From positions 6,464,001 through 6,528,000 of the forward strand of contig OY761556.1 in NCBI GenBank assembly GCA_963664705.1: a stretch of 64,000 bases of DNA, written 5' to 3'. Shown here piece after piece: positions 32,953-55,976 of the stretch. Below the pieces are notes generated by a model, which was not told the origin of the DNA, did not search any database, and worked only from the letters and a program-made list of their open reading frames with translations. The translations under genes were made by a program, and so were the position numbers. Each line of letters opens with the position of its first letter. Positions within the stretch are counted from its first letter, which is position 1. This DNA is from Acidobacteriota bacterium (lineage in GTDB: Bacteria; Acidobacteriota; UBA6911).

Positions 32953-32995
32953 TTTTGCTCCTCACTTATGCGTGGTTTTGGCGCGTGCCGCCTTG

Positions 32996-34392: not shown

Positions 34393-34405
34393 GGATCCTC
34401 CTCAA

Positions 34406-35389: not shown

Positions 35390-35415
35390 ATCAGCCCTCT
35401 TTCGCGTTTGCCTGT

Positions 35416-39018: not shown

Positions 39019-39075
39019 GGTCTTTACCGATAAATTGCAGGCGCTCAGCCAGGCTGAGCGCCATGGCAGGAATTC

Positions 39076-39433: not shown

Positions 39434-39541
39434 CTATTGACTGTTTTCTTTCCGTTTCTTGAAAAACCAGAATCCGATTCCGCCGGCTGCTACAATCAGC
39501 GCAACAAAGAACCAGTTCATTGCTTGCTGAAACGTTTCCAT
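39434..39541 (-). CDS. 35-aa single-TM small protein
   Basis: METFQQAMNWFFVALIVAAGGIGFWFFKKRKENSQ with a strong aggag RBS. Confidence 0.6.
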   Translation of the reverse strand: METFQQAMNWFFVALIVAAGGIGFWFFKKRKENSQ

Positions 39542-39644: not shown

Positions 39645-39676
39645 GAAGAGTCACGAAACGCCAAAAAACTTATAAA
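39645..39676 (-). promoter_or_regulatory. Conserved ICE promoter motif copy 2 upstream of the virB2-B10 operon
   Basis: Reverse complement tttataagttttttggcgtttcgtgactcttc; 30/32 identical to the core of copy 3. Confidence 0.75.
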
Positions 39677-39731: not shown

Positions 39732-40580
39732 ATGAGGGCCAGCGAAAAGGAATGCGCGTCGGCGGGAAACGATTTTGATGAACAAATCAGTGAGCTGATG
39801 GAAGAGCTAAAGCCTTTACTGGTCGAACATGGCGTGGATTTGGCAGCGTTGTCGGATGCAGGCAAAGAAGCTCTGCTCGAAATAGATAGAAATAATATAG
39901 GGAACTCTTCAGAACAGCTTCGCTCGTATTTTTTAGAACTGGTCTTATGGAACCTCTTTGCCAGTGGAAGCTCGCTTTGGATCAATTCCAGAACCACGGC
40001 TGGAAACATGGTCCCGTTGGAAATAATGACAATGGCATACGTGCTGTGGAAAGATGGCGTGTACCTGGCCGAGCATTACGGTGTGGATTCGGCAGTTGCA
40101 GCGGAAATCATGGCGCTGGTTACACACAAAGCAGCGGACAGGGTAATCAATTATGATGACGATCCTGAAAACGAACCTGTTCGAGACATCAAAAAATATG
40201 TTTTTACAGCATTCAGGTATGCCATTTACATGGTTGCCAAAAAACAGTCCTTACCTGCAAAGGATTTTCTTGAAATGAATAGTTTGAGCACGAATTGGGA
40301 GTCGGGGCTAAGCGGAGTAGAGAAACAGATATTCTGCGAAGAGCTGGTGAAAGCCATGCCTCCGAAGGCTCAAAAGATTTTCATGTCCTATCATGTTTCT
40401 CAATATAGTTGGAAAGAGACGGCTAAGGGATTGAGCCTGACAGTTGGTGCCGCCCAGAGAATTCTTAGCGATGCGATGATAAAGACATTTGGGATCCGGA
40501 TGCAGGAATTGCGAAGGATAGGCTTTCAACAGGTGACCGAAATTGAGAACTACCTGAAGAAAAAGCAGCGGATTCATTAA
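39732..40580 (+). CDS. Divergent ECF-type RNA polymerase sigma factor with N-terminal extension
   Basis: Region-2-like AAEIMALV...VRDIKKYVFTAFR; region-4 HTH AMPPKAQKIF...YSWKETAKGLSLTVGAAQRIL; followed by an anti-sigma. Confidence 0.75.
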   Translation: MRASEKECASAGNDFDEQISELMEELKPLLVEHGVDLAALSDAGKEALLEIDRNNIGNSSEQLRSYFLELVLWNLFASGSSLWINSRTTAGNMVPLEIMTMAYVLWKDGVYLAEHYGVDSAVAAEIMALVTHKAADRVINYDDDPENEPVRDIKKYVFTAFRYAIYMVAKKQSLPAKDFLEMNSLSTNWESGLSGVEKQIFCEELVKAMPPKAQKIFMSYHVSQYSWKETAKGLSLTVGAAQRILSDAMIKTFGIRMQELRRIGFQQVTEIENYLKKKQRIH

Positions 40581-40599
40581 TACAGAAGTAGAGATTTTC

Positions 40600-41355
40600 A
40601 TGACGAAGAGCGAAGAAGAACTGCGGGTTGAAATCCTGAAAAAAGCCTATATGACGGTCAATCCAAATCCGGAGCGCAAGGGTTGTCCCGAGCCCAAAGT
40701 GCTTCGAGATGTCGCCTATCACCGAAACATCGGCACACCGGAGCAGTTTGAAGCGATCATGGATCACCTCACAAAATGCTCTGCCTGCGTGCGTGATCAC
40801 ATGGCATTTGTTGAAGAGTACCAGGAAAAGAAAAAGCGAAATCAGCAAATGAAGCGATCTTTGCTGGGACTCGTGGCAGTACTGGTGATTTCGCTGGCAA
40901 TTTGGGCTGTCTGGCGCATTCGACCAAGACAAGAGATTGCCGTCAATCCTCCGAAACCACAGCATCAGGAATCCGGGAATCCAGTTTCACCCGATACTGG
41001 CAATCATAAAAACAATCCTCCCCAAATCGCCCAGCTGGAATCCGTCACGATTGAGATCCCCGCAAAACTGAGAGGCTCAGCCGAAACTGGGAATCCCATT
41101 GTCCTCAGCAGAGGGAAGCTGAATGCCGAATTCCGAATGCCAATCGGCAGCCCTGAAGGAAAATATAAGCTGCGGATTTCGGACATTTCCGGCAAAGCGC
41201 TTTGGACTGTGGAGAGAACTGCCTCAAAGGTGAATGGAATTACTGGCTTCAGATCGCCTTTGGATACTTCAAATTTACCATTTGGTGATTACAAACTCAG
41301 CATCCAAGAGCCTGGTTTTGCGGAATGGACGGATTATCCGCTCATAATAAAATAG
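40600..41355 (+). CDS. Zinc-binding (ZAS, HxxxCxxC) transmembrane anti-sigma factor
   Basis: PNPERKGCP...DHLTKCSAC, one TM, extracytoplasmic beta-rich domain. Confidence 0.78.
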   Translation: MTKSEEELRVEILKKAYMTVNPNPERKGCPEPKVLRDVAYHRNIGTPEQFEAIMDHLTKCSACVRDHMAFVEEYQEKKKRNQQMKRSLLGLVAVLVISLAIWAVWRIRPRQEIAVNPPKPQHQESGNPVSPDTGNHKNNPPQIAQLESVTIEIPAKLRGSAETGNPIVLSRGKLNAEFRMPIGSPEGKYKLRISDISGKALWTVERTASKVNGITGFRSPLDTSNLPFGDYKLSIQEPGFAEWTDYPLIIK

Positions 41356-41658
41356 ATTCCACTCACTGTTTTTAAGCCGCAGAATTTCACTTTAGAGTTT
41401 TACAGGCTATTCTGTAATTACGGGCTCCTGCCCAATTACCTGATAAGAATCCGCAATATCGAAGCTGCTGTAAATGGCCTTCGTGTCCATCGTTGTGATT
41501 CAAGGCTCAATAGCTGCGTTCAAATATCAACCTCTCAAGCTGCAGATTGTGAGGAACAAGGTTCCCATAGGCCTAGCTGTCTCAAATATTTGCACTTTTC
41601 GCTTGACAAACGTCTCATATATGTCGATTATCATCTCATGTATAGCGATAATCGTTTC

Positions 41659-42798
41659 ATGAATGAGTTATTTCGTATCGTAAAAGGCGCTCTTCGTCTC
41701 GATATTGAGAAAGTAAGGAATTACACCGCATTTTTGGCAGACAAGCTAGAAAAAGCAGGCGACGCATCTTCGGCAGGCAGACTGCGAAAGCTTCTCCAGG
41801 AAGAAGACCATCAACTCAGGCCAGCTGAAACGGCTTTCGCTGTTGCTCTCCCAGTCGATTCTGAGAGTCGATTCCCACTTCTTGAGCGAGTCGACCTCAA
41901 AGCTCTCCACGAACCCCCTGTGGTTTTGACGGAAGACCAGTGGGCTACTGCGTACGAGTTTCTCAGCATTGCCAAGAGTCACGCCCAGCTTGATGCCCAG
42001 GGCGTCACTGCCACTGTGAATCTACTGATGTATGGGCCTCCAGGATGCGGGAAGAGTCGCCTTGCACGTTTCTTTGCCCAAGAGCTTGGGCTCAGTCTCT
42101 ATATGGCCCGTCTGGATGGGCTGATTTCGTCATATCTTGGAAGCACAGCAAAAAACATTCGTGCCATATTCGATTTTGCTTCCAAAAATCCATGCGTTCT
42201 ATTTCTCGATGAGTTCGATGCTATTGCCAAGCTTCGTGCTGACTCTCAGGAACTTGGTGAACTTAAGCGTGTCGTTAACAGCTTCATACAGAACTTAGAT
42301 GCCCTCGGAGCACAATCAATAATTATTGCTGCCACAAATCATGAGTCACTTCTCGATTCTGCCGTGTGGCGGCGCTTTAGCTACCGCCTGCACCTTACCT
42401 ATCCCACGCCAGATCTGCGAGAGAAGATGTGGATTCAATTTCTCGCTCCACTCGAATTTCCACCACACGATATTGAACTTCTTGTGGATCTCTCAGAGGG
42501 TTTTTCGGGATCTGATATCCAGGAGATTTCCTTAAGGCTTCACCGGCGGCACATAACCACCAAAACTCATCCAGAGCTTAAAGACGCATTTCAGGTTCTA
42601 AAAAACATTGCCATCGGAGAAGGGGAGGACCGCAGGTTCGTCTCTCGTCTCAAAGATATGGATCCCCGTATAGTCGCTTCTGCTTTACGCGAGCGTAACC
42701 CCAAGCTCTATAGCCATTCATCGCTTGCCCATTTGTTTGGCGTTTCCAAAGCAACTGCCCATCGATGGGCGTTGAAAGGAGTGACTGACCATGCCTGA
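41659..42798 (+). CDS. ietA: IetA-like AAA+ ATPase with C-terminal HTH
   Basis: GPPGCGKS, FLDEFD, AATN, WRRF; C-terminal SLAHLFGVSKATAHRW; overlaps the S8 protease gene. Confidence 0.82.
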   Translation: MNELFRIVKGALRLDIEKVRNYTAFLADKLEKAGDASSAGRLRKLLQEEDHQLRPAETAFAVALPVDSESRFPLLERVDLKALHEPPVVLTEDQWATAYEFLSIAKSHAQLDAQGVTATVNLLMYGPPGCGKSRLARFFAQELGLSLYMARLDGLISSYLGSTAKNIRAIFDFASKNPCVLFLDEFDAIAKLRADSQELGELKRVVNSFIQNLDALGAQSIIIAATNHESLLDSAVWRRFSYRLHLTYPTPDLREKMWIQFLAPLEFPPHDIELLVDLSEGFSGSDIQEISLRLHRRHITTKTHPELKDAFQVLKNIAIGEGEDRRFVSRLKDMDPRIVASALRERNPKLYSHSSLAHLFGVSKATAHRWALKGVTDHA

Positions 42799-45142
42799 CA
42801 ATTCCGAACGAAAGGATATCTTTCGATCCCGTGATCGACTTCCTATCAAGTTGATTTTGCCTAAACAGGGGCGGGAACGAAAAGTTCCTGGGGGCGGGGG
42901 GCCTGCCAAGCCCTTTCGTTCGGTGGACACTGCGTACAGAAGACGACTCCATAGCCAGGTTACGGCCATTCGGGATGCTATCCTGCCGCAGGCTTCCAAA
43001 ATAGGCAGCATCCCGATCCGCGTTAGGCTTCTCTCAAAAGCCGTGGCCAAGAGCCACCGTCCTGAACACCTTTTTTCGCGCGACTCTTGCCCCATAATCG
43101 GCTCTGGCCATCTTGGCGAGCTATTTCTCAAGGCCTCACCAGATGGACTGGAAAAGCTTGCTTCCACCATTCACCGCAATCAAACCGATCAAACAATAAA
43201 GGAACTCTCCAGCATCGAATCGATAGAGCCCATTACTCCAGTTTTTCGGCGTCACGGGGTTCAATCCATCGACATCCTAAAAAAGAGCCCACGCAGCGAA
43301 AAGGGATTTTTCACCAGAGTCAGATTGTTTGATTTCGGCCCTGATGATGACCAAGCAAAGCTCGTTGATGACTTCCACGCCGCATGTCGACGGCAACACC
43401 TTTCCATTAGCCAGGAAGGGTACGAACCGAGCAGCCAAATATATCAGGTGGAATGCCGCTCGGAAGCGGATGTTGAACAGCTTTCCGGTATTATCGGTAT
43501 CCGCTCGATAACTCAGATGCCACTTATTCGCATGATTCGCCCACGCGTTTTGAATGCACGCCCTCTGCCTACAAGGCTTCCCATCGCCGGCGATGTGGAC
43601 GGAGATTTTCCCGTTGTTGTTGTTGTCGACAGTGGTGTTACGGATAAAAATTCCGAGCTTCAAACATGGATTGTCGGCCGCAAATCCGACGTTTCTCCGC
43701 AATATCGGAACACGGATCACGGTACCTTCGTCGCTGGTCTTATCTGTTGGGGCTCGCAGCTCAATCCTGACCTGGCCGGAATTGATTCCAATCCCTGCGG
43801 CGTTTTTGACCTTCAGGTAATTCCAAACGGCGACCCAAGCCGGGGCGATACTGACGACCTAATTGAAAGCGAATTTCTCCAGTCCCTTGAGTCTGCACTA
43901 AAACAATATGCCAACAAATATCGTGTTTGGAACCTCTCTTTAGGCTCCGATCAAGTTTGCTCGCTAGACGAATTTTCCCCTCTCGCCGAGCAACTTGATC
44001 ATCTTCAGGAAAAGTATCGAGTCTCCTTTGTCATAAGCGCCGGAAATTACGATACGCTTCCGCTCTTGGATTATCCACGAACGCTTCAGCAGCTTGACGT
44101 CGGTCGAATTACTTCTCCAGCCGACAGCGTCCTTGGAATTACAGTAGGCTCAGTCTCCCACATTGACTATAAAGCTCACGGACCCCGCCAGCATCATCCT
44201 TCTCCTTTTTCGCGGCATGGGGCAGGCCCAAATCACATAATTAAGCCTGACCTGATCCATTACGGAGGAACCTGCACTGTTGATGCCTCTCATACTTCCG
44301 GAATCCGCTCCGTTAACGCGAAAAGTTCTGCTGAGGATCTCGGTACTAGCTTTGCAGCTCCACTAATTTCCCGCACGCTTGCTCAGATCTATCATCAGGT
44401 CACTCCGACTCCATCACCCGTACTTGCCCGCGCACTTCTTACGCATCACGCCCGCGACCCCCGAACTGGAGACCGCGTGCCCGATGGAGACGAGAACTTT
44501 TTCGGCTTTGGCCTTCCGGCTACAGTTCCATACTGCCTTGAGTGCAGTCCGCACTCCTCTACGCTAATCTTTGAAGATACCTTGAGGCCTGGCTACTACC
44601 TAGAATGGGATGATTTCCCGTATCCCGCCGCTCTCCATCGTGAAGGACGCTACTACGGCCAGGTTTGGATGACTGTAGCCCTTGCTCCATCACGGGGGGG
44701 CCGTTGGGGGACTGAGTATTGTGAGACGCATATCGATGCGCACTTCGGCGTCTACGCTTCCAAGACGTCTCGACAGACGGGCGATGTGTCCGTACAATTC
44801 AACGGCCTGGTTCCCCCAGAGCATAAAAATCCAGGACTACTTTATGAATCATATCAGGTTGAGAAGTTGCGAAAGTGGGCACCAGTGCGTACATATTTTG
44901 GTGATCTAGGCGAACGTGGAAAACGCGGACTTCGCTGGCGTCTCAAGGTTCAGCTTCTCACACGTCACGGAATTGAAGATCAGGAAGCTTTTAAGCCACA
45001 GCCGTTTTCTCTCATTCTGACGATTGCAGACCCGCTGAAAAAGGCACCGGTCTATGATCAGATGGCGCAAACCGTTCACAACCGGTTCCAAGCTCAAAAC
45101 ATCGTAGTGCGTGCTGCATCTCGGATACGTACGCGTACTTAG
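42791..45142 (+). CDS. ietS: IetS-like S8 subtilase
   Basis: Catalytic triad VDSG, HGTFVAG, GTSFAAP; NLSLG and SAGN motifs. Confidence 0.85.
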   Translation: MPDNSERKDIFRSRDRLPIKLILPKQGRERKVPGGGGPAKPFRSVDTAYRRRLHSQVTAIRDAILPQASKIGSIPIRVRLLSKAVAKSHRPEHLFSRDSCPIIGSGHLGELFLKASPDGLEKLASTIHRNQTDQTIKELSSIESIEPITPVFRRHGVQSIDILKKSPRSEKGFFTRVRLFDFGPDDDQAKLVDDFHAACRRQHLSISQEGYEPSSQIYQVECRSEADVEQLSGIIGIRSITQMPLIRMIRPRVLNARPLPTRLPIAGDVDGDFPVVVVVDSGVTDKNSELQTWIVGRKSDVSPQYRNTDHGTFVAGLICWGSQLNPDLAGIDSNPCGVFDLQVIPNGDPSRGDTDDLIESEFLQSLESALKQYANKYRVWNLSLGSDQVCSLDEFSPLAEQLDHLQEKYRVSFVISAGNYDTLPLLDYPRTLQQLDVGRITSPADSVLGITVGSVSHIDYKAHGPRQHHPSPFSRHGAGPNHIIKPDLIHYGGTCTVDASHTSGIRSVNAKSSAEDLGTSFAAPLISRTLAQIYHQVTPTPSPVLARALLTHHARDPRTGDRVPDGDENFFGFGLPATVPYCLECSPHSSTLIFEDTLRPGYYLEWDDFPYPAALHREGRYYGQVWMTVALAPSRGGRWGTEYCETHIDAHFGVYASKTSRQTGDVSVQFNGLVPPEHKNPGLLYESYQVEKLRKWAPVRTYFGDLGERGKRGLRWRLKVQLLTRHGIEDQEAFKPQPFSLILTIADPLKKAPVYDQMAQTVHNRFQAQNIVVRAASRIRTRT

Positions 45143-45274
45143 TAAGCAGCGAAATCATGAACCCTCGCTTCACATAATTGGTTTTTGTTTGATTAGAGTG
45201 TTGAGGCAACCAACAGCAGCCAAGTTCGAAGTTTTATACTTCTAAGCAAGCCCAGCAAAAGCCCCCGAGCAGTC

Positions 45275-46174
45275 TCATATGGAGACCATGATTGATTTCA
45301 ACTCACTTTCGGGGAATATGAGAGCGAACACCTGATAGGTGCTGTCAAAGGCCTCTAGGTATAAGGTCTCTGAGATCTCAGTGATGGGCGATTCAATTCG
45401 ACAGCGCTTCGTCAGCTTTTTATTGAATTGAGGAAGCCTGTTTCCTAGCGGATCTCGGCTATAGAACGCATCTGGCCATTTAACTATTCCGAAACGATCG
45501 AGGAATCTTTGGGATGCGACCACGCGGCGCAGTTCAAATCGATTTCCACGGCTAACTTCATGCACAGGCTCATCGAAGATTAGCACCGCACAGCAGCGGT
45601 GACTGGTCGAAACGAAGCGTCGCATGGCCGCATATACTGAAGATCCGTACCTTTTCGCAAGATCCATTGGAGTCTTAATCGCAAACGGGAGCACTTTTGC
45701 ATCTTTCTCAAACCGGTCAATCTGGAAGAGCACTTCAGATGCGAATACTCCCGCTTGTCGCTCAAACTCCTGTTTCACCTCTGGATCAAGTTCGGCCTCA
45801 CCATCCTCAACAAGCGCATATGCATCTCTTTGCCAGGGTAAGAATCCGTGCCCTGTTTCGTGGAGGGATACAAATCGTCGTTTTTGTTCTTTAACGCTTA
45901 GATCAAGGTAAATTATTTTATCCTGAGAATCGAATAATCCGAGAACTTTGTCCAATGCTTTTTTAATGGTTCCGGTAACAGCGCCGTAAGCCCTCTTCAG
46001 GAATCCTTCATCAAGAGAGGCCCCTGCAACAGAAAGTTCTGCCGCCGCGATGATTTTCTCTACGGGCGTTGGAAACTGGTCGCATGCACCCGCTTGCCTC
46101 AGCAAGCGGGCGGCATGTTTCCGAATCTCCGTATGCATTTCAGGGGGGACAGAACAGTCATCGGCTTTACTCAT
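45275..46174 (-). CDS. ImmA/IrrE-family metallopeptidase (CapP-like)
   Basis: RRFVSLHETGH and ERQA motifs; downstream of the HTH gene. Confidence 0.82.
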   Translation of the reverse strand: MSKADDCSVPPEMHTEIRKHAARLLRQAGACDQFPTPVEKIIAAAELSVAGASLDEGFLKRAYGAVTGTIKKALDKVLGLFDSQDKIIYLDLSVKEQKRRFVSLHETGHGFLPWQRDAYALVEDGEAELDPEVKQEFERQAGVFASEVLFQIDRFEKDAKVLPFAIKTPMDLAKRYGSSVYAAMRRFVSTSHRCCAVLIFDEPVHEVSRGNRFELRRVVASQRFLDRFGIVKWPDAFYSRDPLGNRLPQFNKKLTKRCRIESPITEISETLYLEAFDSTYQVFALIFPESELKSIMVSI

Positions 46175-46568
46175 CTTTTCCTTTCCTTTGCTTAGAACGT
46201 AAGAAGGCAAGGTATTTCAGCAGTTCCTCTTCTTCTTCTCGGCTAAGAGGGCCGAGAGATGCCGGAACTACTGATCCCTTCAGCTGCAGCGAAGCTGCCC
46301 GCAATTTTGGCGATGCCTTTATGTATCCTGCCTTTTGCATCAGTACCTCATAGGGAACCTTATAGAATTCCGCTAACGCATGCAGGATGTGAGGCGACGG
46401 CTTGCTGATCTTATCGTTCTCCAATTGGCTTAGATATGCATTCGAGACCTCAGTGCCTTCCTCTACTTCCCGCAGTGTATGTTTTCGAGTTTGGCGTATG
46501 TTTCGAAGAAACTCACCGAGGCTTTGTCCAGCGCCTTCCGGCGATGCCAATTCATTTTTGCCGCTCAT
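46167..46568 (-). CDS. XRE-family HTH repressor (CapH-like)
   Basis: LREVEEGTEVSNAYLSQLEN; C-terminal YLAFLRS resembles the CapH cleavage region. Confidence 0.85.
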   Translation of the reverse strand: MSGKNELASPEGAGQSLGEFLRNIRQTRKHTLREVEEGTEVSNAYLSQLENDKISKPSPHILHALAEFYKVPYEVLMQKAGYIKASPKLRAASLQLKGSVVPASLGPLSREEEEELLKYLAFLRSKQRKGKDE

Positions 46569-46614
46569 TGCTTTCTCCTTTTTGGTTCTCCTTAGGGATT
46601 TATTTTAATAGCCT

Positions 46615-46677
46615 TTGCTAAAGTTAGCAAGCATTGCGTGCTGGTTGCTTGACATACTACGCAACGCGTAGTATATT
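46615..46677 (+). promoter_or_regulatory. Sigma70 promoter with overlapping palindromic operators
   Basis: TTGACA (46649-54)-17 bp-TATATT (46672-77); atactacgc-aac-gcgtagtat (46654-74); ttgctaa-ag-ttagcaa (46615-30). Confidence 0.75.
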
Positions 46678-46739
46678 TAGATTTGTGAAATATGGAAATG
46701 TTTATTTCCAAAACTCTTAACCTTTTTAAGGAGACAATT

Positions 46740-47732
46740 ATGTCTGTCCATTCTGTTGAAGAAACCTGGGTTGAGACTCTTGACGCGTCCCTCCCCGAAT
46801 CAATTCCATCCGCAAAAACCTTAGGTGCACTGCCTCCTGGACTAGCAAAGCTCAAGATACGCCTGGCGATTCAGCGTTGGCCCAATGGCGAAGAAAGCCA
46901 TTTCAGGGCAGAACTCTCCGATAGTCTCGTCGAGATACTTCGTCACGGAGCCGAGGCTCTTGGAACGCCCGCTCTTCCTCCTCATCCCGCGGAGCCACTG
47001 GATACCCTTTTATGCCGGCGACATGGACACGAATGGGAATCCTTGGCTGATCTCCAAACTCCGCTTTGGATTCTGCTTGCCGAAGGCTTTTCTCGCCATT
47101 TCGCGATCGATTTTAAGACGATAATTCAAATCAATGCGCGGTGGGGAACCGCCTCCAATTCCAGCATGAGCCCCCGGGAACTCCTAACTTCATTTGGTTT
47201 TGACCCGGCTCAATTTAGCTTGTACTACGCCACGAGTTCGGATCTTCTCCCACCAGACACTCCGCTGAACATTCAGCGAGGCGACCGTTTCGAAGCACAA
47301 AAGGACGGGCGATACGGCTTTGTGTCGTCCCGTCCCCCACGGGGGACTCAAACCATCGAAGAGGAAATTGAAGAGCTTCAGAAGCAAGGACTCGATATCA
47401 AACTCACGAGCCAAAATAGTCAGCGTTATGTTGAACTCTTGGGATTAGAGATTCCCTCTCCTCCCTGGTCAACTTCACGAGCAGACATTCTTATTGCGGT
47501 TCCGGGCATATACCCGCAAGGAGGCCTCGATGCGTTTTATTTGCACACTACTGTTTCTCATACAAATGGGCAAATTCCCTATCAGCAATCCATTGCCGAG
47601 ATTGCAGGCATGTCGTGGGCTTTGATTTCATGGCACTACTCTCAGAGCCGTCCTTGGAATCCAGTTTTGGATGACCTTGCATCTCATATAGTCCATTGTC
47701 GTGGATTCTTTCTACAGCGAGGCATCCGATGA
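46740..47732 (+). CDS. Ubiquitin-like (beta-grasp) domains fused to prokaryotic E2-like domain
   Basis: Beta-grasp-like segment ending KDGRYG (47301-47318), then E2-like ILIAVPGIYPQGGLDAFY...SWHY...WNP..DDL..H. Confidence 0.7.
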   Translation: MSVHSVEETWVETLDASLPESIPSAKTLGALPPGLAKLKIRLAIQRWPNGEESHFRAELSDSLVEILRHGAEALGTPALPPHPAEPLDTLLCRRHGHEWESLADLQTPLWILLAEGFSRHFAIDFKTIIQINARWGTASNSSMSPRELLTSFGFDPAQFSLYYATSSDLLPPDTPLNIQRGDRFEAQKDGRYGFVSSRPPRGTQTIEEEIEELQKQGLDIKLTSQNSQRYVELLGLEIPSPPWSTSRADILIAVPGIYPQGGLDAFYLHTTVSHTNGQIPYQQSIAEIAGMSWALISWHYSQSRPWNPVLDDLASHIVHCRGFFLQRGIR

Positions 47733-49129
47733 ACCTGAGAATATCCGAATCGCATTGGCGAGACGTACAACGAGCTACCATGTCCAGCTTCTCAAAAGCT
47801 CTTGGGCGGCCTGCCGAAACCGGCTGCATTTTGCTTTGTGGACACAACGCACACTCAGTCCGTCCGAGTCTTTTGGTTGCCGATGTTCTAATTCCCAGTG
47901 ACCAGGACCTTAAAGATCAGGAGTATGGTGGTTTAACGTTTTCTAGTAGTTACCTTCGGCGTGCCCTCCTTACTGTACGGCAACGCGGACTAAAGGGGTT
48001 TTTGACCCTGCATACTCACCCACTAGCAGATAGATACGTCGGCTTTTCCAACTACGACAATGAAAATGATCCTCAGTTAATGCAAAACTTATATGAGATG
48101 CAACAAGATGGATTATTTGGAAGCATTGTCATAGGCAAGAACTCTGCTGCCGCCAGGATCTGGGATTGTTCAAGGTTCCTGCCTTTAAGGAATTTGGTAA
48201 TCGTGGGCGAACAGCTATGTTTTATCCCGTTGAACGGAGACTCCTCAACGATAGCAGTCCCGGAAGCATCTGAAATCTTTGATCGCAGTTTGGCGCTAAC
48301 CGGGCAAGGAGCGCTTTCTATTCTATCTCAGCTCCGCATTGCAGTAATCGGGGCTAGTGGCACAGGATCTCTCATCGTGGAACTTCTGGCTCGCGCAGGG
48401 GCTGGAGAGATCGTCCTTTTCGATTTCGATACAGCAGATCACACTAATCTAAATCGCGTGCTCTACCTGCGAACGAGAGACACTGATGTAAAGAGGATTA
48501 AAGCTGAACGTCTCGCTGAAGCCATCAAAGAAAGCGGCCTCCCGTCACGTATCACCATAGTCAAAGATGGTGATATTCGGAAACCCGAGGTAGCCAGCGA
48601 ACTGCGTGGTTGTGATCTCCTAATCGGGTGCGTAGACCGCGATTGGCCGCGTCTCATTCTCTCCGAGGTTTCGTATCAATATCTATTGCCCTATCTGGAT
48701 CTCGGAACCGAAATTGGAATTTCTGACGATTGCATTCAAAGTATCGACTCCAGAACATCATATGTCTGTCCCGGACGTCCATGTTTGCTTTGCAGTAAGG
48801 TTGTCTCCCAAGAACGTCTGCGTCTCGAAACGCTTGAAAGTGATGAACAAGACCGCGTTATAAAAATGGGTTATTCTGCGGATATTCGCCTTAAAGCACC
48901 TGCTGTTATGGAACTCAACATGCGCTCTGCTTCCTTAGCCATGTTCCTTCTCCGCAATCTCCTTCAGCCCTTCCTGGCTGCTCCTGTACCACACACAATT
49001 AAGGAAGCGCTTACAAACTACTCAACTCGCCAGCTTTTTTACTCCGTCATGCCCAAATGCCCGTGTTGTGATTCAGAGCGCCTCGGCGCGGGTGGTTCAT
49101 CGCGTCTAAGCACTAGACCGCAGGCTTAA
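47729..49129 (+). CDS. JAB peptidase-ThiF/E1 fusion
   Basis: JAB E...HTHP...FSNYD; E1 VIGASGTGS, DFD, NLNR, GCVD, CLLC and C-terminal CPCC. Confidence 0.85.
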   Translation: MNLRISESHWRDVQRATMSSFSKALGRPAETGCILLCGHNAHSVRPSLLVADVLIPSDQDLKDQEYGGLTFSSSYLRRALLTVRQRGLKGFLTLHTHPLADRYVGFSNYDNENDPQLMQNLYEMQQDGLFGSIVIGKNSAAARIWDCSRFLPLRNLVIVGEQLCFIPLNGDSSTIAVPEASEIFDRSLALTGQGALSILSQLRIAVIGASGTGSLIVELLARAGAGEIVLFDFDTADHTNLNRVLYLRTRDTDVKRIKAERLAEAIKESGLPSRITIVKDGDIRKPEVASELRGCDLLIGCVDRDWPRLILSEVSYQYLLPYLDLGTEIGISDDCIQSIDSRTSYVCPGRPCLLCSKVVSQERLRLETLESDEQDRVIKMGYSADIRLKAPAVMELNMRSASLAMFLLRNLLQPFLAAPVPHTIKEALTNYSTRQLFYSVMPKCPCCDSERLGAGGSSRLSTRPQA

Positions 49130-49266
49130 CAGACCCGAATTATTGAAAGCAGATCGCGGGTTAAAGTCATCGGAAGCCATGGATTCCATAATCCGGGAAT
49201 TTCCTTCCATCGAAAGATCCGGATTCAAGAAGGTGTTGTTGAACGACTGTCAATGCGCGGGTGAAC

Positions 49267-50334
49267 TCATCTCCTATATTCCGCCGTCAGCTGACGCTGG
49301 ATACGGCTATCCTGGTCACGAATCTGCAAATATGCCAGGGAAGATCCTCCACATGAATCGATATCAATCACACCAAAACTTTTTTCATAAAAGAGATTTG
49401 CAGCTCTGTGCTGATTCTTCTCTGGCGAGAAGAAAGCTCTTAAATGATAGAAGAAATCGACATGGTGGGTCAGGCCGCTGCTTGTGACATCATATAGAGA
49501 ATACGGCAATTGCGGATCATCTAATCTGGATATCTCCGCAAGGTGGCGATCGCCGCTTAGGATAACGGTGAGCCTTGGTTTTGCATCTGTGAGCAATTGC
49601 AGGATTCGTTTTCGTGATTTCGGATAATTGCCCCAATGCTCATAGGGATGCTCGCAGGAAAGCAATTGAATGCTGGATCCAAGCAGAACAATTTCATCTC
49701 TACTATCTCTCAGTTCTTTTTCAAGCCATTGCCATTGCTTCTCACCGAGGAGATCACTCTCCGGTCCCGGTACATCTGCGTTGTAGCGGAGATCCAGAAG
49801 GATGACTTTGATTCGCCCCGCAGGCTTGCCATATGTATAGGAAGCATAAACGCCGTCCTGCTTCCGGCGAGGGCTGTCTTGCGGTTCATCTATGAAATCA
49901 AGAAAAAGCTGTTGGCTCTCAGCCTTCTTCGAGTAATGCTTGTTACCATTTTTCATCCCATAATCATTGTCATCCCAGGTGCCAATGATGGGGCACTGCT
50001 TTCTCATCTCTGCGTATTCGGGATTCTGTTTCTGTTTTTCGTACTGGCTTCGCAGATATCCCACATCTTCAGTAGCGGCATCGACGCTGTCTCCGAGCCA
50101 GATCCAGAGGTCGGGCTTGCAGTTGACAATAGCTCGCCACATATAGTTTGGCTTCCATTGTTTGTTGCAGGAACCGAATGCAATTCGAAAAACGCCAGGC
50201 CCAGCCGGGTTGCGATCAATATGATCACCCATTGGCGCAACTGTTCGCGTGGAATAAAGCTGAGCAACCGGGATGGCAATCACAATGAGAGCCATCAGCA
50301 GCCCCAGGAATTTAAAAGCATGTCTAAGCTTCAT
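49267..50334 (-). CDS. PhoD-family alkaline phosphatase-like protein
   Basis: FGSCN, WLGD, WDDND, LLGEKQWQWL, LSGDRH motifs; N-terminal signal/TM. Confidence 0.85.
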   Translation of the reverse strand: MKLRHAFKFLGLLMALIVIAIPVAQLYSTRTVAPMGDHIDRNPAGPGVFRIAFGSCNKQWKPNYMWRAIVNCKPDLWIWLGDSVDAATEDVGYLRSQYEKQKQNPEYAEMRKQCPIIGTWDDNDYGMKNGNKHYSKKAESQQLFLDFIDEPQDSPRRKQDGVYASYTYGKPAGRIKVILLDLRYNADVPGPESDLLGEKQWQWLEKELRDSRDEIVLLGSSIQLLSCEHPYEHWGNYPKSRKRILQLLTDAKPRLTVILSGDRHLAEISRLDDPQLPYSLYDVTSSGLTHHVDFFYHLRAFFSPEKNQHRAANLFYEKSFGVIDIDSCGGSSLAYLQIRDQDSRIQRQLTAEYRR

Positions 50335-52991
50335 TGTAATTTCTCTCCTGTGTCAGCAGGCCGGGATTCGATAAAAAGAGAATCGGAACTATCGCCAATC
50401 ATCAGCATTCCCGCCCAGTGCTTTGGGAGTGCATTGTCCTTGTATTCTCCAATAAAATCCAACTTCGCCTGGCGCAGAGCAGATCCCTTGTCCATTCCAT
50501 GCGCCAAATATGAGTAGAAGCGAGTCATCAGCTCCGCCGTGGAAAGATCCTCTGTGGGCCAGATGCTTGCTACCACAGATCGCGCGCCGGCCATCAGAAA
50601 GGATTTAACCAAATTGGAGACTCCCTCCTGGTCCAATACTCTTCCCATTGCGGTATCGCATGCGGATAGAACGACCAAATCGGCTTTTAGTCGGAGCCGG
50701 CTGATTTCCCACGCCTGAAAGATGCCGTCATCGCGTTCATCAATCTGAGGTCCAAATAGAAGTGCTGACCTGGCTGGAAATCTCGGATCTGAAATGCCAT
50801 GAACTGCAAAATGGAGGATGTCGAAATTTTCCAGGCTAAGCGACTTAATTGCTGATTCGCTGACAGATTCTCCGAGCAAGGTAAAGCTATCAGTCGCGCC
50901 CTTCATCTCTTTAGCGATCGTTGATATTTCAGTAAGCGAACCCTCCAGTCTGGACGGTCGCGGCAGATTATTAAAGTAGATGAGTCCGGATTCGTCTGAA
51001 GCAGGGTATCGAACATCACCCACACCCAAAAACTTTCGTTTACCCGTTCGCATTACCGGGGTTTTCCTGAGAAGGTATGTAATTGTTGCCGATGGGCTGT
51101 AATCAATCATGTGCAGTTCCAGAAAAGGCCTCCCGGAGGGCACCGGAATTGCCTCGAAGGGAAGTAAGTGCAGCAATCCATCCGGCACAATTGTAATTCG
51201 TGGCTTATGATCGATATCTGGGAGCGGACGGATCAACAGGTCATAGAGTCTTTGGGCGAATTGGGTACTTTTTCGGTTTTGCAGAATATCATTGCGATAG
51301 TTTGAAACAGCCTCTTCAATCACATGCCTGGGAGCAAGCGTGATGCCCTGAACACCGGATCGACTGATTACCAAGCAGGTAGAGGAAGGCTCTCTCAATA
51401 CATATTCAAGAATGACTTCTGCTGAATATAGGCCTTTTTGAATTTCTGCTAACGGGATTGGAGAAAATGTCAGCGCCTCAATATTGTGCCGACCAGCTTC
51501 TCGGCTGGATCCAAGATGCTGTTCCAAATCGAAAATTTCGCTTTGAATTCGATGTTGTTCCAGCGGATCTTTCTTTTTCCAGAGCTCGGCTTGGAGGCGA
51601 GTGAGTGACCGTTCGTATTTCTCGAAAGGATTTTGATCCTTTTCTCCCACTGCCGGAGTGGGATCTAACCGTCGTCCTCTAAGAGAATCTGAAATGCTTC
51701 TGCCACGAGCCTGTTCCAGAATTAGGAAAGCTTTTGCCGGATCATTGAGTCGATGGAGCGAAAACGAAAAGTAGTCAGAGTAAAGGCTGCTCATTCTGGC
51801 AACGAGGAAAGCACGAGCATGGGCACTCGTAAATTTCCCCAGCAGACCGTTTAGGGTTTGCAGCGCTTCATTGTAGAGGAGATCGGCCTCAGCGATCCGG
51901 CCTTGGTCTGCCCGAATTGCTGCCCTGTTCCGAAGATGGAGAATGGTTTCTGTTGGATCTCCAGATTTCAAGCTCGAATGGAAACCCACTTCAGCACAAT
52001 CAAGCCCTTTCCACAATTCGTCTCGTGTGAGATGAATTTGTGAAAGGTCCAGAGATATTTTTGAAATTAGCCGATGATAACCAATTTCCAAGGAAATATT
52101 GAGGGCTTGTTTCAGCAAATCTGCGGCCTCCACAAGTCGGCCATTCTCGAAATGCACATGCCCCTGTAGATATAGCGCTTGGGCATTCTGAGCGGGAGCT
52201 CCGGTGAGTCGCGCCTGAGCTATGCAATGCTCAACCAAAGGCGTTGCATCCTGAAGTCGATTGGATGCGATGAGAATTATTGCCTTCTCAAAAAAGGCTG
52301 GGGAATAGGAGAACGCTTGTTCGCGTTCTATTAGGTCAATCGCGCGATCAAGATGGCCAAGGGCATCTTGATTCTTTCCTGCACTGCTATAAAGACAGGC
52401 GATGGCAGTCCTGAATCGCAGTTCATTCATCCCATCGCCGATCTCTGCTGCGTGCCAAAGGACTGCAGAGACTTCATCTGATCCAATTGGATCTCCATCC
52501 AACACCTTCAACAGGCCGAGCTCTCCCCGTGCGCGGTCCTCCAAATGCTTATCCCCAGCCTTTTGAGAGAGCATGAGGACTTCCTGCCAATCCCGCCGGC
52601 GCTGATAGGCATTAAAAACGAAGGCGCTTAGGGCATCAGTGTCAGACTCAACATCGGCTTTTAAAAACAGCGCTCTGAGACGAACCGTTGGATTGTTTTT
52701 TGCCGGCAAACGCCCAATCTCTCTTCTTAGAGCATCACAAATTTGCTGGAGAGAATATTCCTTAATAGAAGCTCGAATGCTTCCATGCCTGGCCATTGCT
52801 GCGCTTTCAATGTCACCTGCCACAAGAAGCTGCTTCTCTGCTTCCTGGTAAAGCGGCAGTGCTTTGCCCCATTGGTATCTCTCTGCATGCAGATCCGCCT
52901 GCCGGAGCATTTCATTGCCAGACTCCAAAGACCAAGCCGTCCGTGAACAGCAGATGGTTGCAACTAGTAGGAACCAATAGATTGCTTTCAT
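50331..52991 (-). CDS. Exported TPR-CHAT (caspase-like) protease
   Basis: Signal peptide, TPR helices, IVPDGLLHLLPFEA, His-Cys dyad LHFAVHG / VVLSACDT, ALRQAK, HWAG. Confidence 0.9.
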   Translation of the reverse strand: MKAIYWFLLVATICCSRTAWSLESGNEMLRQADLHAERYQWGKALPLYQEAEKQLLVAGDIESAAMARHGSIRASIKEYSLQQICDALRREIGRLPAKNNPTVRLRALFLKADVESDTDALSAFVFNAYQRRRDWQEVLMLSQKAGDKHLEDRARGELGLLKVLDGDPIGSDEVSAVLWHAAEIGDGMNELRFRTAIACLYSSAGKNQDALGHLDRAIDLIEREQAFSYSPAFFEKAIILIASNRLQDATPLVEHCIAQARLTGAPAQNAQALYLQGHVHFENGRLVEAADLLKQALNISLEIGYHRLISKISLDLSQIHLTRDELWKGLDCAEVGFHSSLKSGDPTETILHLRNRAAIRADQGRIAEADLLYNEALQTLNGLLGKFTSAHARAFLVARMSSLYSDYFSFSLHRLNDPAKAFLILEQARGRSISDSLRGRRLDPTPAVGEKDQNPFEKYERSLTRLQAELWKKKDPLEQHRIQSEIFDLEQHLGSSREAGRHNIEALTFSPIPLAEIQKGLYSAEVILEYVLREPSSTCLVISRSGVQGITLAPRHVIEEAVSNYRNDILQNRKSTQFAQRLYDLLIRPLPDIDHKPRITIVPDGLLHLLPFEAIPVPSGRPFLELHMIDYSPSATITYLLRKTPVMRTGKRKFLGVGDVRYPASDESGLIYFNNLPRPSRLEGSLTEISTIAKEMKGATDSFTLLGESVSESAIKSLSLENFDILHFAVHGISDPRFPARSALLFGPQIDERDDGIFQAWEISRLRLKADLVVLSACDTAMGRVLDQEGVSNLVKSFLMAGARSVVASIWPTEDLSTAELMTRFYSYLAHGMDKGSALRQAKLDFIGEYKDNALPKHWAGMLMIGDSSDSLFIESRPADTGEKLQ

Positions 52992-53000
52992 ATCTGGCCG

Positions 53001-55976
53001 CTAAAACTGATATCTCAGAGCGAGCTGAAGCTGAAATGGCGCTCCGGCATAAAGACCGTTTGTGTTGAGAGATCCGTTTGGCAGGTATTTTGTCCGGAAG
53101 GTTGGCAGCGGATTCTGCCCTGGTCCCCACAAAGAGCCGATAGCACCGGAAGGTCCTTGCTCATTCGGATTAGCGGTGAATAAAAGGTTCTTGGCATTCC
53201 AAAGATTGAACAACTCAGCGCTCACATGCAATTTGCTAGTTTCTCCAATACTGAACATTTTTAGGACCCGAAGATCATGCTGGAAATGGTTTGGCTGGCG
53301 AAAAGAATTCCTGAGAAGTGGAATCCCATTGATGATCGGACGATCGGTAAGCTGGCCATCTCCATTGCTGTCCATGCCGGTAAAAGCGCTGAAGGGTGTC
53401 CCTGTGCGCCATTCTACGGTCGAGCTCGTCGTCAATCCCCAGGGAAGCTCCCATAAACTATTGAGAATCCAGCGATGGCGAATATCGTTCCGACTCCAGC
53501 GGTACTCGGATCCAAGATCAAATGCGTTTTCGTAGTTGATTCCGAGATAGTTGCGTTCGTTTGAGTCGTCATCTTTGTTATAGGAAAGGACATAATTTGT
53601 CCGAAATTGCATCCTGGAGAACCTGCGTTCAAGCCCCACTATGAGAGCATCATAATTTGAGCGAGCGTTGCTTTCCTGTTGACGAAGAATGCCGAACGCC
53701 GGGTTAGGTCTGGCGCTGAGATCGAAGTGCGGCCGCAGTACTGACGGGATTGAATTGTCAGGTTCAATCGTTGGCTGCGGCAGATTTACATCTCGGATTC
53801 TCTCCAGGTGGACAGTGTGGCTGTGAACAAAAGAAATATTCCCAACAAAGCTATTGGTTAGCCGTTGTTCAATGGAAATGCCGTATTGGAAGGCTCTCGG
53901 GTTCCGGAAGTCGGATGCGAAAAATGAAACGTCGGGCCTGACGTTAAGGCCCAGAGATGTGAAATACGAAGCATCTTGCGCATTCGCGGTTTCAGGAACG
54001 AACGGGAAAACGAATTCCGGCCGAGCTTTTTGGATCGCGCCTATTTGTGGAGCGACCAGATCGAATGTGACTCCGACCTCAGGATTGCCGTTGGAGTTGA
54101 ACGCCTGGTTGACCAGCAAATAGGGGGTCCGCGCATTAAAAAGGCCGGTTCCGAGACGGATAACCGTTCGGCTACCGGATCCGGGGCTCCAGGAAAGCCC
54201 CAGACGAGGCTGCCACATATTTAAGTCGCTGGGCACTTCGGAAGTGTTAGGCAGAAGTTGATTGGGCTTTGAAGGTTGAGGCATGAGCGCGGCTTCATAT
54301 CGAAGTCCGGCATAAAGGCTCAAATTGGAACTCAGCCGTATTGAGTCCTGCAGGTAACCGGCGAAATCCCAGAATCCGGCTTGAAATCGTCCATTGCCGA
54401 AATAGATTCTCATGAAATCGGCAGGATAGGGTTGCCCGGTTGCTGGATTGATTTGTCTTTCTGACGTGCGAATGTAGTTGTTAAGACTCGTGAATAGGTA
54501 GAGCCCCCGCCAGTTTCCGCGAAAGGTTTGAAAAACGGAGGTGCGGCTTACATCTAAGCCCAACTTCACATGATGTCTGCCTTTGATAAATGAAACGTTA
54601 TCCGCAAACTGCCAGCGTCCATCGTGCTGAATCGCGGGAAGCGTTGCTAATCCTCCAAATGCGCAGCAACCGACAATTCGAATTTCCGGCCCGGCGATAC
54701 TCCTGAAATCATTGCCCTCCAGATTGTTGGTTCGCGGCCGGGATTCATAGGAGTAATGAGCCCGGAATTCATTGAAAATGCCCGAACCGAAACTGCTGTT
54801 TAACGACATAACGACTGCATGTGTTGAGTCGCGTTCTGTTCCATTGTTTTCAAGAGAACTGTCCGTGACGCCAAAATTGGTAGCGTTTGCAGCCTTATTT
54901 GTGCTGAAACTGTACCGCATGCTGAGTTCGTTGCGTGATGACAGTCGATGATCGATCTTGGCCATATAGGTGGCCACATTATTGGTAGTTTTGAACGTGC
55001 CCTGCTTTCCCATGATCTCAGGGGGACCACTAGCCAGGTTGAAGCGGACTGTTAGCGGTTGCTGTTCGCGCTGGCCGTCGAAAACTGTGAAGAAAAATGT
55101 TTTGTCTTTAACCAATGGCCCGCCAAGGCTGGCACCAAATTGTTGCCGCGTTGGGGCGGTATCAAAACCAAAGATGTTTTTGGGAGAGAATTCACGGTGG
55201 CGCAGGTAATAGAAAGCGCTTCCGTGAAAATTGACCGATCCGGATTTGGTGACGACGTTTATCACTCCACCGGCACTTCTACCGAATTCAGCCGAGAAGT
55301 TGGAATGAACGATGCGAAATTCCTGAATGGCTTCCTGACTTAGGATATAGGCGAAATTTGAGCGCTCGCCGCCGCGTTGTCCACCAAAGAAAGGCTGATT
55401 AAAATCAGCTCCATCCACATTGACGGCACTGTTGATGCCTCTTGCGCCGGATAAACTTAGCTGCCCGCGCTCATGTTCCTGGTAGAGGCCTGGAGACAAT
55501 AGTGCGAGATCCAGGAATCGGCGGCCGTTGAGCGGAAACGCTCCGATCTCAGATTGGTCAATAACGCTGCTGATCTCAAATTGTGAGGGATTGGTGATTG
55601 ACGCTTTATCTTGAACTTCAATGAATTGCGAAATGGTCGCAGGCTGCATTGTCACTTCAATAGAGCGCATCTGGCCTATGTTAACGATAATGCCGGTGAT
55701 CCTAACCTCTGAGAAACTCGTCCGATGAGCTGTGATCTCATATTTGCCCACCGGGAGTTGAGTAATCGTGAAAAATCCTTCGGGGGAAGTGCGGTCAGTG
55801 CGCGTAATACCCATCTCAATATGTCTGGCCATGATGAGTGTATCGGGAAGAACACCTCCCGTTACATCACGGACAATGCCCTGAATCTCTCCGGAGCTGA
55901 TTTGGGAATGAGCAATATAGGGGAAGCAAAACCAGAAGATCACCGCGATAATCCTGCATAGCTTCATGACAGTCAT
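53001..55976 (-). CDS. TonB-dependent receptor (Oar-like, carboxypeptidase regulatory-like N-domain)
   Basis: Signal peptide, PLNGRRFLDL, SAEFGRSAGGVINVVTKSG plug motif, C-terminal LRYQF. Confidence 0.9.
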   Translation of the reverse strand: MTVMKLCRIIAVIFWFCFPYIAHSQISSGEIQGIVRDVTGGVLPDTLIMARHIEMGITRTDRTSPEGFFTITQLPVGKYEITAHRTSFSEVRITGIIVNIGQMRSIEVTMQPATISQFIEVQDKASITNPSQFEISSVIDQSEIGAFPLNGRRFLDLALLSPGLYQEHERGQLSLSGARGINSAVNVDGADFNQPFFGGQRGGERSNFAYILSQEAIQEFRIVHSNFSAEFGRSAGGVINVVTKSGSVNFHGSAFYYLRHREFSPKNIFGFDTAPTRQQFGASLGGPLVKDKTFFFTVFDGQREQQPLTVRFNLASGPPEIMGKQGTFKTTNNVATYMAKIDHRLSSRNELSMRYSFSTNKAANATNFGVTDSSLENNGTERDSTHAVVMSLNSSFGSGIFNEFRAHYSYESRPRTNNLEGNDFRSIAGPEIRIVGCCAFGGLATLPAIQHDGRWQFADNVSFIKGRHHVKLGLDVSRTSVFQTFRGNWRGLYLFTSLNNYIRTSERQINPATGQPYPADFMRIYFGNGRFQAGFWDFAGYLQDSIRLSSNLSLYAGLRYEAALMPQPSKPNQLLPNTSEVPSDLNMWQPRLGLSWSPGSGSRTVIRLGTGLFNARTPYLLVNQAFNSNGNPEVGVTFDLVAPQIGAIQKARPEFVFPFVPETANAQDASYFTSLGLNVRPDVSFFASDFRNPRAFQYGISIEQRLTNSFVGNISFVHSHTVHLERIRDVNLPQPTIEPDNSIPSVLRPHFDLSARPNPAFGILRQQESNARSNYDALIVGLERRFSRMQFRTNYVLSYNKDDDSNERNYLGINYENAFDLGSEYRWSRNDIRHRWILNSLWELPWGLTTSSTVEWRTGTPFSAFTGMDSNGDGQLTDRPIINGIPLLRNSFRQPNHFQHDLRVLKMFSIGETSKLHVSAELFNLWNAKNLLFTANPNEQGPSGAIGSLWGPGQNPLPTFRTKYLPNGSLNTNGLYAGAPFQLQLALRYQF

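What the first reader, a model, noticed from the sequence alone, without database searches (positions are those of the whole stretch)
39732..55976. Candidate trans-envelope cascade: TonB receptor + secreted TPR-CHAT protease + ZAS anti-sigma + ECF sigma on an ICE
Seen: a sigma/anti-sigma pair (HxxxCxxC, TM, extracytoplasmic domain) converges on a tightly coupled TBDR-CHAT-PhoD operon; only defence cassettes (41.6-49.1 kb) lie between them. The CHAT protein has a signal peptide, TPRs and an intact His/Cys dyad, so it could meet the anti-sigma C-domain in the periplasm. Known: in type III-E CRISPR the TPR-CHAT protease Csx29 cleaves Csx30, which binds a sigma factor; anti-sigmas are commonly released by regulated proteolysis. 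Inference: a ligand imported or presented by the receptor activates the caspase-like protease, which cuts the anti-sigma and switches on conjugation. I know of no description of this for an ICE.
Basis: partly seen in the sequence, partly recalled or inferred. Interest (0 to 1): 0.88.

Follow-up and report, generated by a model that had tools for sequence, protein, structure and literature searches.

The report
Envelope protease switch for DNA transfer
A mobile DNA element in an Acidobacterium carries a sigma factor that likely turns on all its transfer genes, a predicted membrane protein that likely holds that factor back, and a predicted secreted caspase-like protease that travels with this pair across the phylum and would free the factor by cutting its captor, an envelope-sensing trigger for gene transfer that our literature searches did not find described.

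Summary
All named genes are there. The region lies in an integrative conjugative element at tRNA-Met of an Acidobacteriota genome. The protease–anti-sigma link is strongly supported by genomics: in 401 genomes, 10 of 11 full-length members of this TPR-CHAT subfamily lie within 10 kb of this anti-sigma family, and 31 of 37 well-flanked GTDB loci show the same. New here: a 27-bp ECF-type promoter motif (RTAAG-N16-GACTCT) occurs just three times in the 6.9-Mb genome, at the heads of the excision, mating-pair and relaxase operons, so the sigma likely drives transfer. The anti-sigma (CHCC zinc domain, membrane helix, Ig-like domain) keeps a loop arginine in 141 of 144 homologues, a candidate cut site. 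The TonB receptor and PhoD are not core (9 and 3 of 80 loci); a PDZ-S41 peptidase (69 of 80) is the usual partner, absent here. Four genomes keep the full anti-sigma without this protease, and the motif does not extend to Terriglobia. Closest known: Myxococcus DdvA/DdvS (fused, defence) and Tn916 Sig7-8. The scan noted a similar three-gene module with another caspase family elsewhere. Verdict: new split variant; interest 0.72.

The parts
13363..13389 (+). Predicted ECF promoter (GTAAG-N16-GACTCT) heading the virB11-repB-relaxase-parA-coupling protein operon
   Evidence: one of three copies in the genome
13452..24559 (+). virB11 ... TrwC relaxase ... T4CP operon (predicted regulon member)
31624..39390 (-). 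virB2-virB3-virB4-virB5-virB6-virB8-virB9-virB10 mating-pair operon (predicted regulon member)
39434..39541 (-). 35-aa hydrophobic leader ORF between the promoter and virB2
   Evidence: a similar ORF is visible before virB2 of the second ICE
39647..39673 (-). Predicted ECF promoter (ATAAG-N16-GACTCT) heading the virB operon, divergent from the sigma gene
   Evidence: same place in 12 of 15 related ICEs
39732..40580 (+). Divergent ECF-type sigma factor, 282 aa, with an N-terminal extension of about 90 aa
40600..41355 (+). Anti-sigma: CHCC zinc domain (C29, H56, C60, C63), one membrane helix, flexible linker, Ig-like periplasmic domain with conserved R158-G159 loop
41590..49129 (.). Variable cargo slot: IetA/IetS, CapP/CapH-like pair, E2 and E1-JAB genes; no copy of the promoter motif
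   Evidence: replaced by other cargo in L052, L028
49267..50334 (-). PhoD-like phosphoesterase with N-terminal hydrophobic segment; clade-specific passenger
50331..52991 (-). Predicted secreted TPR-CHAT protease, 886 aa, dyad H731/C778
53001..55976 (-). Oar-like TonB-dependent receptor (CarboxypepD_reg + PF25183 barrel), 991 aa
56464..56490 (+). Predicted ECF promoter (GTAAG-N16-GACTCT) heading xis-xis-int
   Evidence: also before xis in L028, L030, L052, L096
56493..58473 (+). Two HTH_17 excisionase-like genes and tyrosine integrase (predicted regulon members)
58611..58687 (-). tRNA-Met, integration site; its 3' 50 bp recur at G000:C1:6401473

Best explanation
This ICE carries a split, DdvA-like signalling module in which an ECF sigma factor likely drives the excision, mating-pair and relaxase operons, a zinc-finger membrane anti-sigma likely holds it inactive, and a separate, predicted periplasmic TPR-CHAT protease would release it by cutting the anti-sigma's outer domain. 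Shown from sequence: the genes, intact catalytic dyad and zinc ligands, tight phylum-wide linkage of this CHAT subfamily to this anti-sigma family, and a three-copy bipartite motif at the heads of the three transfer operons. Inferred: that the motif is this sigma's promoter (about 0.8); that the protease works in this circuit (about 0.8); that it makes the site-1 cut itself, probably at the conserved R158-G159 loop, after which host RseP and cytoplasmic proteases (elsewhere the linked S41 peptidase) finish the job (about 0.55). The signal is unknown; the TPR arm is the likely sensor. The TonB receptor and PhoD are add-ons of this clade and may present a signal here (about 0.2), but they are not needed by the module in general.
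For: Linkage: 401 genomes, 11 full-length CHAT-subfamily copies in 10 genomes, 15 anti-sigma copies in 13 genomes, overlap 9 genomes; 10 of 11 within 10 kb, the 11th on a 9-kb contig. GTDB best 80 loci: anti-sigma 52/80, sigma 47/80; with 9-kb flanks 31/37 and 29/37; contiguous sigma-anti-sigma-CHAT-S41 operons exist (L131, L215, L224, L237). Module CHATs form one clade, support 1.0. Co-loss: second ICE of this genome has the sigma but neither anti-sigma nor CHAT; G302 has a zinc-domain-only anti-sigma and no CHAT match at 1e-20. Promoter: 3 copies in 6.9 Mb, all at transfer operon heads, 0.025 expected per shuffled window; present before virB2 in 12 of 15 related ICEs, and the three misses keep the -10 box but change the -35 box along with the sigma-4 helix; GTAAG-N16/17-GCGTTC before virB in three distant ICEs, close to the mapped DdvS promoter GTAA-n16-CGT (PMC6061681). 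R158 in 141/144 homologues at 21% mean identity, in a loop between strands. Top fold match of the CHAT model is DdvA. Host has RseP-family proteases.
Against: G071 and G034 ICEs keep sigma, full anti-sigma and the motif but no member of this CHAT subfamily (best E 7.5e-42, 1.1e-65); both carry a different sigma-ZAS-S9-CHAT cassette in the same slot. G288 and G426 also lack it (fragmented assemblies). The motif is at background level in Terriglobia-type loci (1 of 44 against 52 of 880 shuffles), where the gene facing away from the sigma is often a LysR-like regulator, so the transfer output is shown only for this clade and a few others; T4SS genes were seen within 10 kb in only 8 of 37 well-flanked loci. 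The motif's -35 conservation is partly built in by the search pattern. Decay occurs: internal stop in the L052 sigma, frameshifted CHAT in G106. The Asp thought to bind a P1 Arg is also present in DdvA and Csx29 alignments, so Arg specificity is not established. Genomes are kin, so the p-values overstate.
Confidence: 0.5

Rival explanations
1. The CHAT belongs to the circuit but does not cut the anti-sigma: it senses or binds, or it cuts another protein (the S41 peptidase where present, an envelope or incoming protein), and the anti-sigma is opened by S41 or by host proteases.
For: S41 follows the CHAT in 69 of 80 loci, more often than the anti-sigma is seen; four genomes keep the full anti-sigma without this CHAT; DdvA self-cleavage itself is still only proposed (PMC11506125, discussion).
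Against: The S41 proteins have no hydrophobic N-terminus in 8 of 8 checked, so they are probably not in the same compartment; the window's clade has no S41 yet keeps an intact dyad; the periplasmic Arg is nearly invariant.
Confidence: 0.22
2. One reading: a ligand taken up or presented by the TonB receptor activates the CHAT, which cuts the anti-sigma. This is a narrower form of the best explanation, restricted to the receptor-bearing variant.
For: TBDR-CHAT-PhoD is one tight operon in five related elements; a receptor is present in 7 of 9 S41-less loci but 2 of 69 S41-bearing loci; the best outside match to the window receptor is the module-linked one in L130.
Against: No STN signalling domain; receptor in 9 of 80 loci and of mixed lineage; truncated to 158 aa with PhoD lost in L028 while sigma, anti-sigma and CHAT are intact; tree support for a module-linked receptor clade is only 0.86.
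Confidence: 0.15
3. The sigma/anti-sigma/CHAT module controls something other than transfer, and the three-copy motif is read by another ICE regulator.
For: The motif is missing from Terriglobia-type loci; no start site or binding was measured; the sigma scores below family cut-offs.
Against: The motif is non-palindromic, bipartite with a 16-17-nt spacer, always faces away from the sigma gene, is present in ICEs that lack the LexA-like gene, and its -35 box changes where the sigma-4 helix changes.
Confidence: 0.1
4. TBDR-CHAT-PhoD is an unrelated uptake cassette that merely rides the same element.
For: It sits 9 kb away in a cargo-rich element, and some ICEs with the sigma pair lack it.
Against: The same CHAT subfamily is tied to the same anti-sigma family across families and classes, with other neighbours and often in one operon.
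Confidence: 0.05

Closest known systems
DdvA/DdvS of Myxococcus xanthus (PMC11506125: abstract, discussion part 1, active-site section and passages read; PMC6061681: passages read)
   Same: ECF sigma; CHCC zinc anti-sigma domain; single membrane helix; periplasmic TPR-CHAT with His-Cys dyad; proposed CHAT site-1 cut then RseP; related promoter (GTAA...); top fold match of the CHAT model.
   Different: Here the TPR-CHAT is a separate predicted secreted protein, the anti-sigma ends in a small Ig-like domain, the genes sit on an ICE, and the predicted regulon is excision and conjugation, not CBASS-CRISPR. A fused DdvA-like gene exists separately on this host's chromosome.
Type III-E Craspase Csx29/Csx30/CASP-sigma (PMC10028731: search listing only; PMC9729208: passages read)
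   Same: TPR-CHAT protease acting on a sigma-binding protein.
   Different: Cytoplasmic, RNA-guided through Cas7-11; the window protein scores 29 bits against a 300-bit cut-off for Csx29, and no Cas protein appeared among the window proteins scanned.
Tn916 Sig7-8 (bioRxiv 10.64898/2026.10.01.756105: abstract and one discussion section read)
   Same: An ICE-encoded sigma factor positively controls excision and transfer.
   Different: Two-subunit sigma with positive feedback, no membrane anti-sigma or protease; here one sigma, no motif before its own gene, three target operons.
TonB-dependent cell-surface signalling (FecI/FecR/FecA type; recalled)
   Same: Outer-membrane receptor, membrane anti-sigma, ECF sigma, proteolytic release.
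   Different: No STN domain on the receptor, no FecR-type anti-sigma, and the sigma motif does not precede the receptor here (it does in L130).
ECF54 and ECF27 SigM (PMC7826278 supplement passages; PMC8999054 passage)
   Same: ECF54: sigma next to CHAT and carboxypeptidase-regulatory domains. SigM: anti-sigma-controlled ECF acting in conjugation.
   Different: Both actinobacterial; ECF54 is described without an anti-sigma; SigM acts in the recipient through ESX-4.

Membership tests
DdvA/DdvS | ECF sigma next to a CHCC zinc anti-sigma with one membrane helix | tested here: met
DdvA/DdvS | TPR-CHAT fused to the anti-sigma | tested here: not met
   anti-sigma ends at 251 aa in an Ig-like domain; CHAT is a separate gene
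DdvA/DdvS | His-Cys dyad in a periplasmic CHAT | tested here: met
   H731/C778 invariant in 29/29; export is predicted from hydropathy only
DdvA/DdvS | GTAA-n16-CGT promoters driving a CBASS-CRISPR island | tested here: not met
   related but different motif, placed before transfer operons and not before defence cargo
DdvA/DdvS | RseP-dependent release and CarD-CarG dependence | not testable with these tools
   host has Peptidase_M50 genes; activity needs experiments
Type III-E Craspase | Csx29 family membership | tested here: not met
   NF041237 29.2 bits, cut-off 300
Type III-E Craspase | Cas7-11 and Csx30 in the locus | tested here: not met
   no Cas family among the 48 window proteins scanned in Pfam or 17 in PADLOC; rest of genome not searched
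TonB cell-surface signalling | Receptor with N-terminal STN signalling domain | tested here: not met
   CarboxypepD_reg at 31-111, no STN hit at E 0.01
TonB cell-surface signalling | FecR-type anti-sigma | tested here: not met
   no FecR hit; zinc domain plus Ig-like fold
TonB cell-surface signalling | Sigma induces its receptor | tested here: inconclusive
   no motif before the window receptor; motif faces the receptor in L130
Integrative conjugative element | Integrase, att repeat, relaxase, coupling protein, VirB system | tested here: met
Sigma-activated ICE (Tn916 type) | Element sigma required for excision and transfer | not testable with these tools
   predicted from the motif only
ECF54 | Phylogenetic placement in ECF54 | not tested
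   group models not on hand; ECF54 is described as 100% actinobacterial

The most novel reading that the evidence does not exclude
Acidobacteriota conjugative elements use a dedicated periplasmic separase-like protease as an envelope sensor: on meeting a cue outside the cytoplasm (a recipient cell, an infecting phage, or a receptor-borne ligand) it cuts a conserved arginine loop of a membrane anti-sigma and so fires excision, pilus and relaxase operons together. This would be a caspase-type site-1 protease acting in trans and an outside-in trigger for horizontal transfer, spread over more than a thousand anti-sigma clusters.
Probability: 0.4. Interest if true: 0.88.

Novelty: new variant of a known kind. 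Interest (0 to 1): 0.72.

Why it matters
ICE transfer is known to be switched by repressors, SOS, peptides or, newly, a cytoplasmic sigma; a switch that listens in the periplasm through a caspase-like protease would be a new input to gene transfer in an abundant, poorly studied soil and sediment phylum. It also makes an open question testable: for DdvA, CHAT-mediated site-1 cleavage is only proposed because enzyme and substrate are one molecule with no known signal. Here they are two proteins with a candidate scissile arginine and a predicted promoter for a reporter.

Tried and rejected
Complex prediction of CHAT with the anti-sigma C-domain was not available: no result either way. Single-sequence anti-sigma scan of GTDB found nothing; plasmid collection had no anti-sigma match and only generic CHATs; the Granulicella plasmid locus was not pursued. 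The broad anti-sigma alignment could not be used on viral contigs. No RNA holder listed. The promoter motif failed to generalise to 44 Terriglobia-type loci and no repeat of it was found in the second ICE. A module-specific receptor lineage was only weakly supported. Arg specificity from the separase D2151 position could not be established: PMC4847710 was not held and the candidate Asp is shared with Csx29. The first tree and 13-locus correlation had two PhoD sequences picked by mistake; I use only the corrected tree; the clean 10-locus correlation (rho 0.52) is confounded by kinship and not counted as evidence. No solved structure matches the anti-sigma by sequence; the Atlas listed only unnamed clusters and zf-HC2. 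Sigma control of the defence cargo was rejected (no motif there). Literature searches that found no description of this module on an ICE or in Acidobacteria; the library lacks most subscription papers, and the ECF classification supplement was cut when stored, so an entry there may have been missed.
Full report
Setting. The window is G000:C1:6464001-6528000 of a single-contig 6.9-Mb genome; homologues carry Acidobacteria labels. It holds the right-hand part of an ICE: Druantia genes, virB11-relaxase-coupling protein (13452-24559, +), ardC, a type IIG methylase, a LexA-like gene, virB10-virB2 (31624-39390, -), the region in question, two excisionase-like genes, a tyrosine integrase and tRNA-Met. 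The tRNA 3' end recurs at 6401473, 6362632 and 6316669, so the element is up to about 121 kb and sits in a tandem array.

Observation. The sigma scores below family cut-offs but aligns with a family whose distant members are clear ECF sigmas. The anti-sigma model (pLDDT 90.5, 144 sequences) shows a three-helix zinc domain, a long helix through the membrane, a flexible linker and a beta-sandwich whose fold matches are Ig-like domains. C29, H56, C60 and C63 are conserved in 143-144 of 144, the CHCC type of DdvA. The CHAT model (pLDDT 84.9) matches DdvA first, then Csx29 and separase. Export is predicted from the hydrophobic N-terminus; 8 of 9 distant module CHATs checked also start with one (the ninth ORF start was unclear).

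Is the CHAT tied to this anti-sigma? In close relatives the order virB2 | sigma, anti-sigma, cargo, PhoD, CHAT, TBDR | xis, int is kept, with a single beta-lactamase-family gene as cargo in L052 and about 10 kb of other genes in L028. The anti-sigma family is large: 1263 clusters at 50% identity. In one sample of 401 Acidobacteriota genomes, the CHAT profile gave 126 genomes at 1e-60, but only 11 full-length matches below 1e-160, in 10 genomes, with a gap to the next score (two candidates scored per genome). The broad anti-sigma profile gave 56 genomes at 1e-6 and 15 matches below 1e-25 in 13 genomes. Nine genomes are in both sets (Fisher p 1e-14; overstated, as genomes are kin, though they span five families). 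Ten of the 11 CHATs are 22 bp to 9.9 kb from the anti-sigma; the eleventh is on a 9-kb contig. Both convergent and single-operon layouts occur. These CHATs form one clade (support 1.0) apart from chromosomal CHATs, several of which also follow a sigma and a zinc anti-sigma. The host chromosome has a fused DdvA-like version.

Against: G071 and G034 have sigma, full anti-sigma and virB but no member of this CHAT subfamily; each has a different sigma-ZAS-S9 peptidase-CHAT cassette between radC and the ICE end. G288 and G426 also lack it. In the other direction, the second ICE of G000 has the sigma with neither anti-sigma nor CHAT, G302 has a zinc-domain-only anti-sigma and no CHAT match, and four metagenome loci have zinc-domain-only anti-sigmas, as expected if the protease is needed only for the outer domain.

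What does the sigma drive? Reading the DNA before virB2 and before xis showed a shared word. With up to 6 mismatches in 28 it occurs 3 times in the genome: 13364 (+), 39672 (-), 56465 (+), the heads of the three transfer operons. The pattern RTAAGTT-N14-RMCWCT gives the same 3 and 0.025 per shuffled window. It is absent before the sigma, the receptor and the defence cargo. A relaxed pattern (5 hits in G000) finds it facing virB2 in 12 of 15 related ICEs and before xis in four. The three misses (second ICE, L073, L075) keep the -10 box with GTCGA or GTCAC at -35, and their sigma-4 helices differ. Three distant ICEs have GT(A/T)AG-N16-GCGTTC before virB, and L130 has GTAAG-N17-GCGTTC before a receptor. 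DdvS reads GTAA-n16-CGT, mapped by 5'-RACE (PMC6061681). The shape, spacing and placing are those of an ECF promoter. Caveats: -35 conservation is partly built into the pattern, and the motif was at background in 44 mostly Terriglobia loci (1 of 44; shuffles 52 of 880), where about 13 have a LysR-like gene (label recalled from its motif) and 5 have virB facing away from the sigma.

Where would the cut be? R158 is kept in 141 of 144 anti-sigmas (mean column identity 21%), followed by G in 108 and S in 22, in the loop between the first two strands of the outer domain. Separases cut after Arg (PMC11506125; PMC9729208), but Csx29 does not, and the Asp after the catalytic Cys is shared with Csx29, so this is a candidate only. 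Host RseP-family genes exist. The linked S41 proteins lack a hydrophobic N-terminus in 8 of 8 and could clear the cytoplasmic fragment; the window's clade lacks this gene.

The receptor. It is co-transcribed with the CHAT here and in close relatives, and receptors are enriched where S41 is missing (7 of 9 against 2 of 69; two loci with under 200 bp of flank dropped). But it has no signalling-domain hit, neighbours of other loci are of mixed lineage, and in L028 it is cut to 158 aa with PhoD gone. A role as signal source in this clade is possible, not general.

Known and new. DdvA/DdvS supplies the architecture and the untested autoproteolysis idea; its paper does not mention Acidobacteria. Tn916 Sig7-8 is a sigma that activates an ICE. 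ECF54 has CHAT neighbours and SigM acts in mycobacterial conjugation. Eight searches found no account of a split sigma/anti-sigma/secreted CHAT module on conjugative elements.

Verdict. Real, conserved and apparently undescribed: a new split variant of the DdvA/DdvS kind with a predicted conjugation regulon. Whole mechanism about 0.5; interest 0.72.

Noticed in passing
G000:C1:2968653-2972743 (L003:6654-10744): Chromosomal ECF sigma followed by a fused zinc domain-membrane helix-TPR-CHAT protein of 1136 aa, a DdvA-like gene in an Acidobacterium.
   Followed up: partly
G000:C1:5633000-5663000 (L001, L002): Second ICE, VirB4 79% identical, with a 34% identical sigma but no anti-sigma or CHAT; -35 box of the virB promoter site is changed.
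   Followed up: partly
G000:C1:6316669, 6362632, 6401473, 6522609: Four copies of the tRNA-Met 3' end: tandem integrated elements at one site.
   Followed up: no
window 3300-12072: Druantia-like cluster (DruD, DruB, DruA hits) with an HATPase gene.
   Followed up: no
window 45275-49129; L088:1079-4931: CapH/CapP-like pair facing an E2 and an E1-JAB gene without a cyclase; the same cassette follows the anti-sigma in G071.
   Followed up: no
L089:12015-19853; L090:10376-18419: A different module, sigma-like gene, ZAS-TM, S9 peptidase, secreted TPR-CHAT, in the same ICE slot next to radC in G071 and G034; possible replacement protease.
   Followed up: partly
L133, L134, L131, L128 and 69 of 80 loci: S41-PDZ peptidase without a signal peptide directly after the secreted CHAT; role unexplained.
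   Followed up: partly
L131:10178-11147; L215; L194, L195, L197, L202: A second sigma, in L131 with a zinc-domain-only anti-sigma, lies back to back with the module's sigma.
   Followed up: no
L052:2737-3585: In-frame TGA at codon 193 of the sigma in an otherwise intact element; pseudogene or assembly error.
   Followed up: partly
L192, L200, L203, L206, L208, L218, L219, L222, L232, L234, L247, L254: A conserved LysR-like gene faces away from the sigma in many Terriglobia elements; may be the sigma's target there.
   Followed up: no
window 29703-30371: LexA-like gene at the tail of the virB operon, kept in L042 but absent from several related ICEs.
   Followed up: partly
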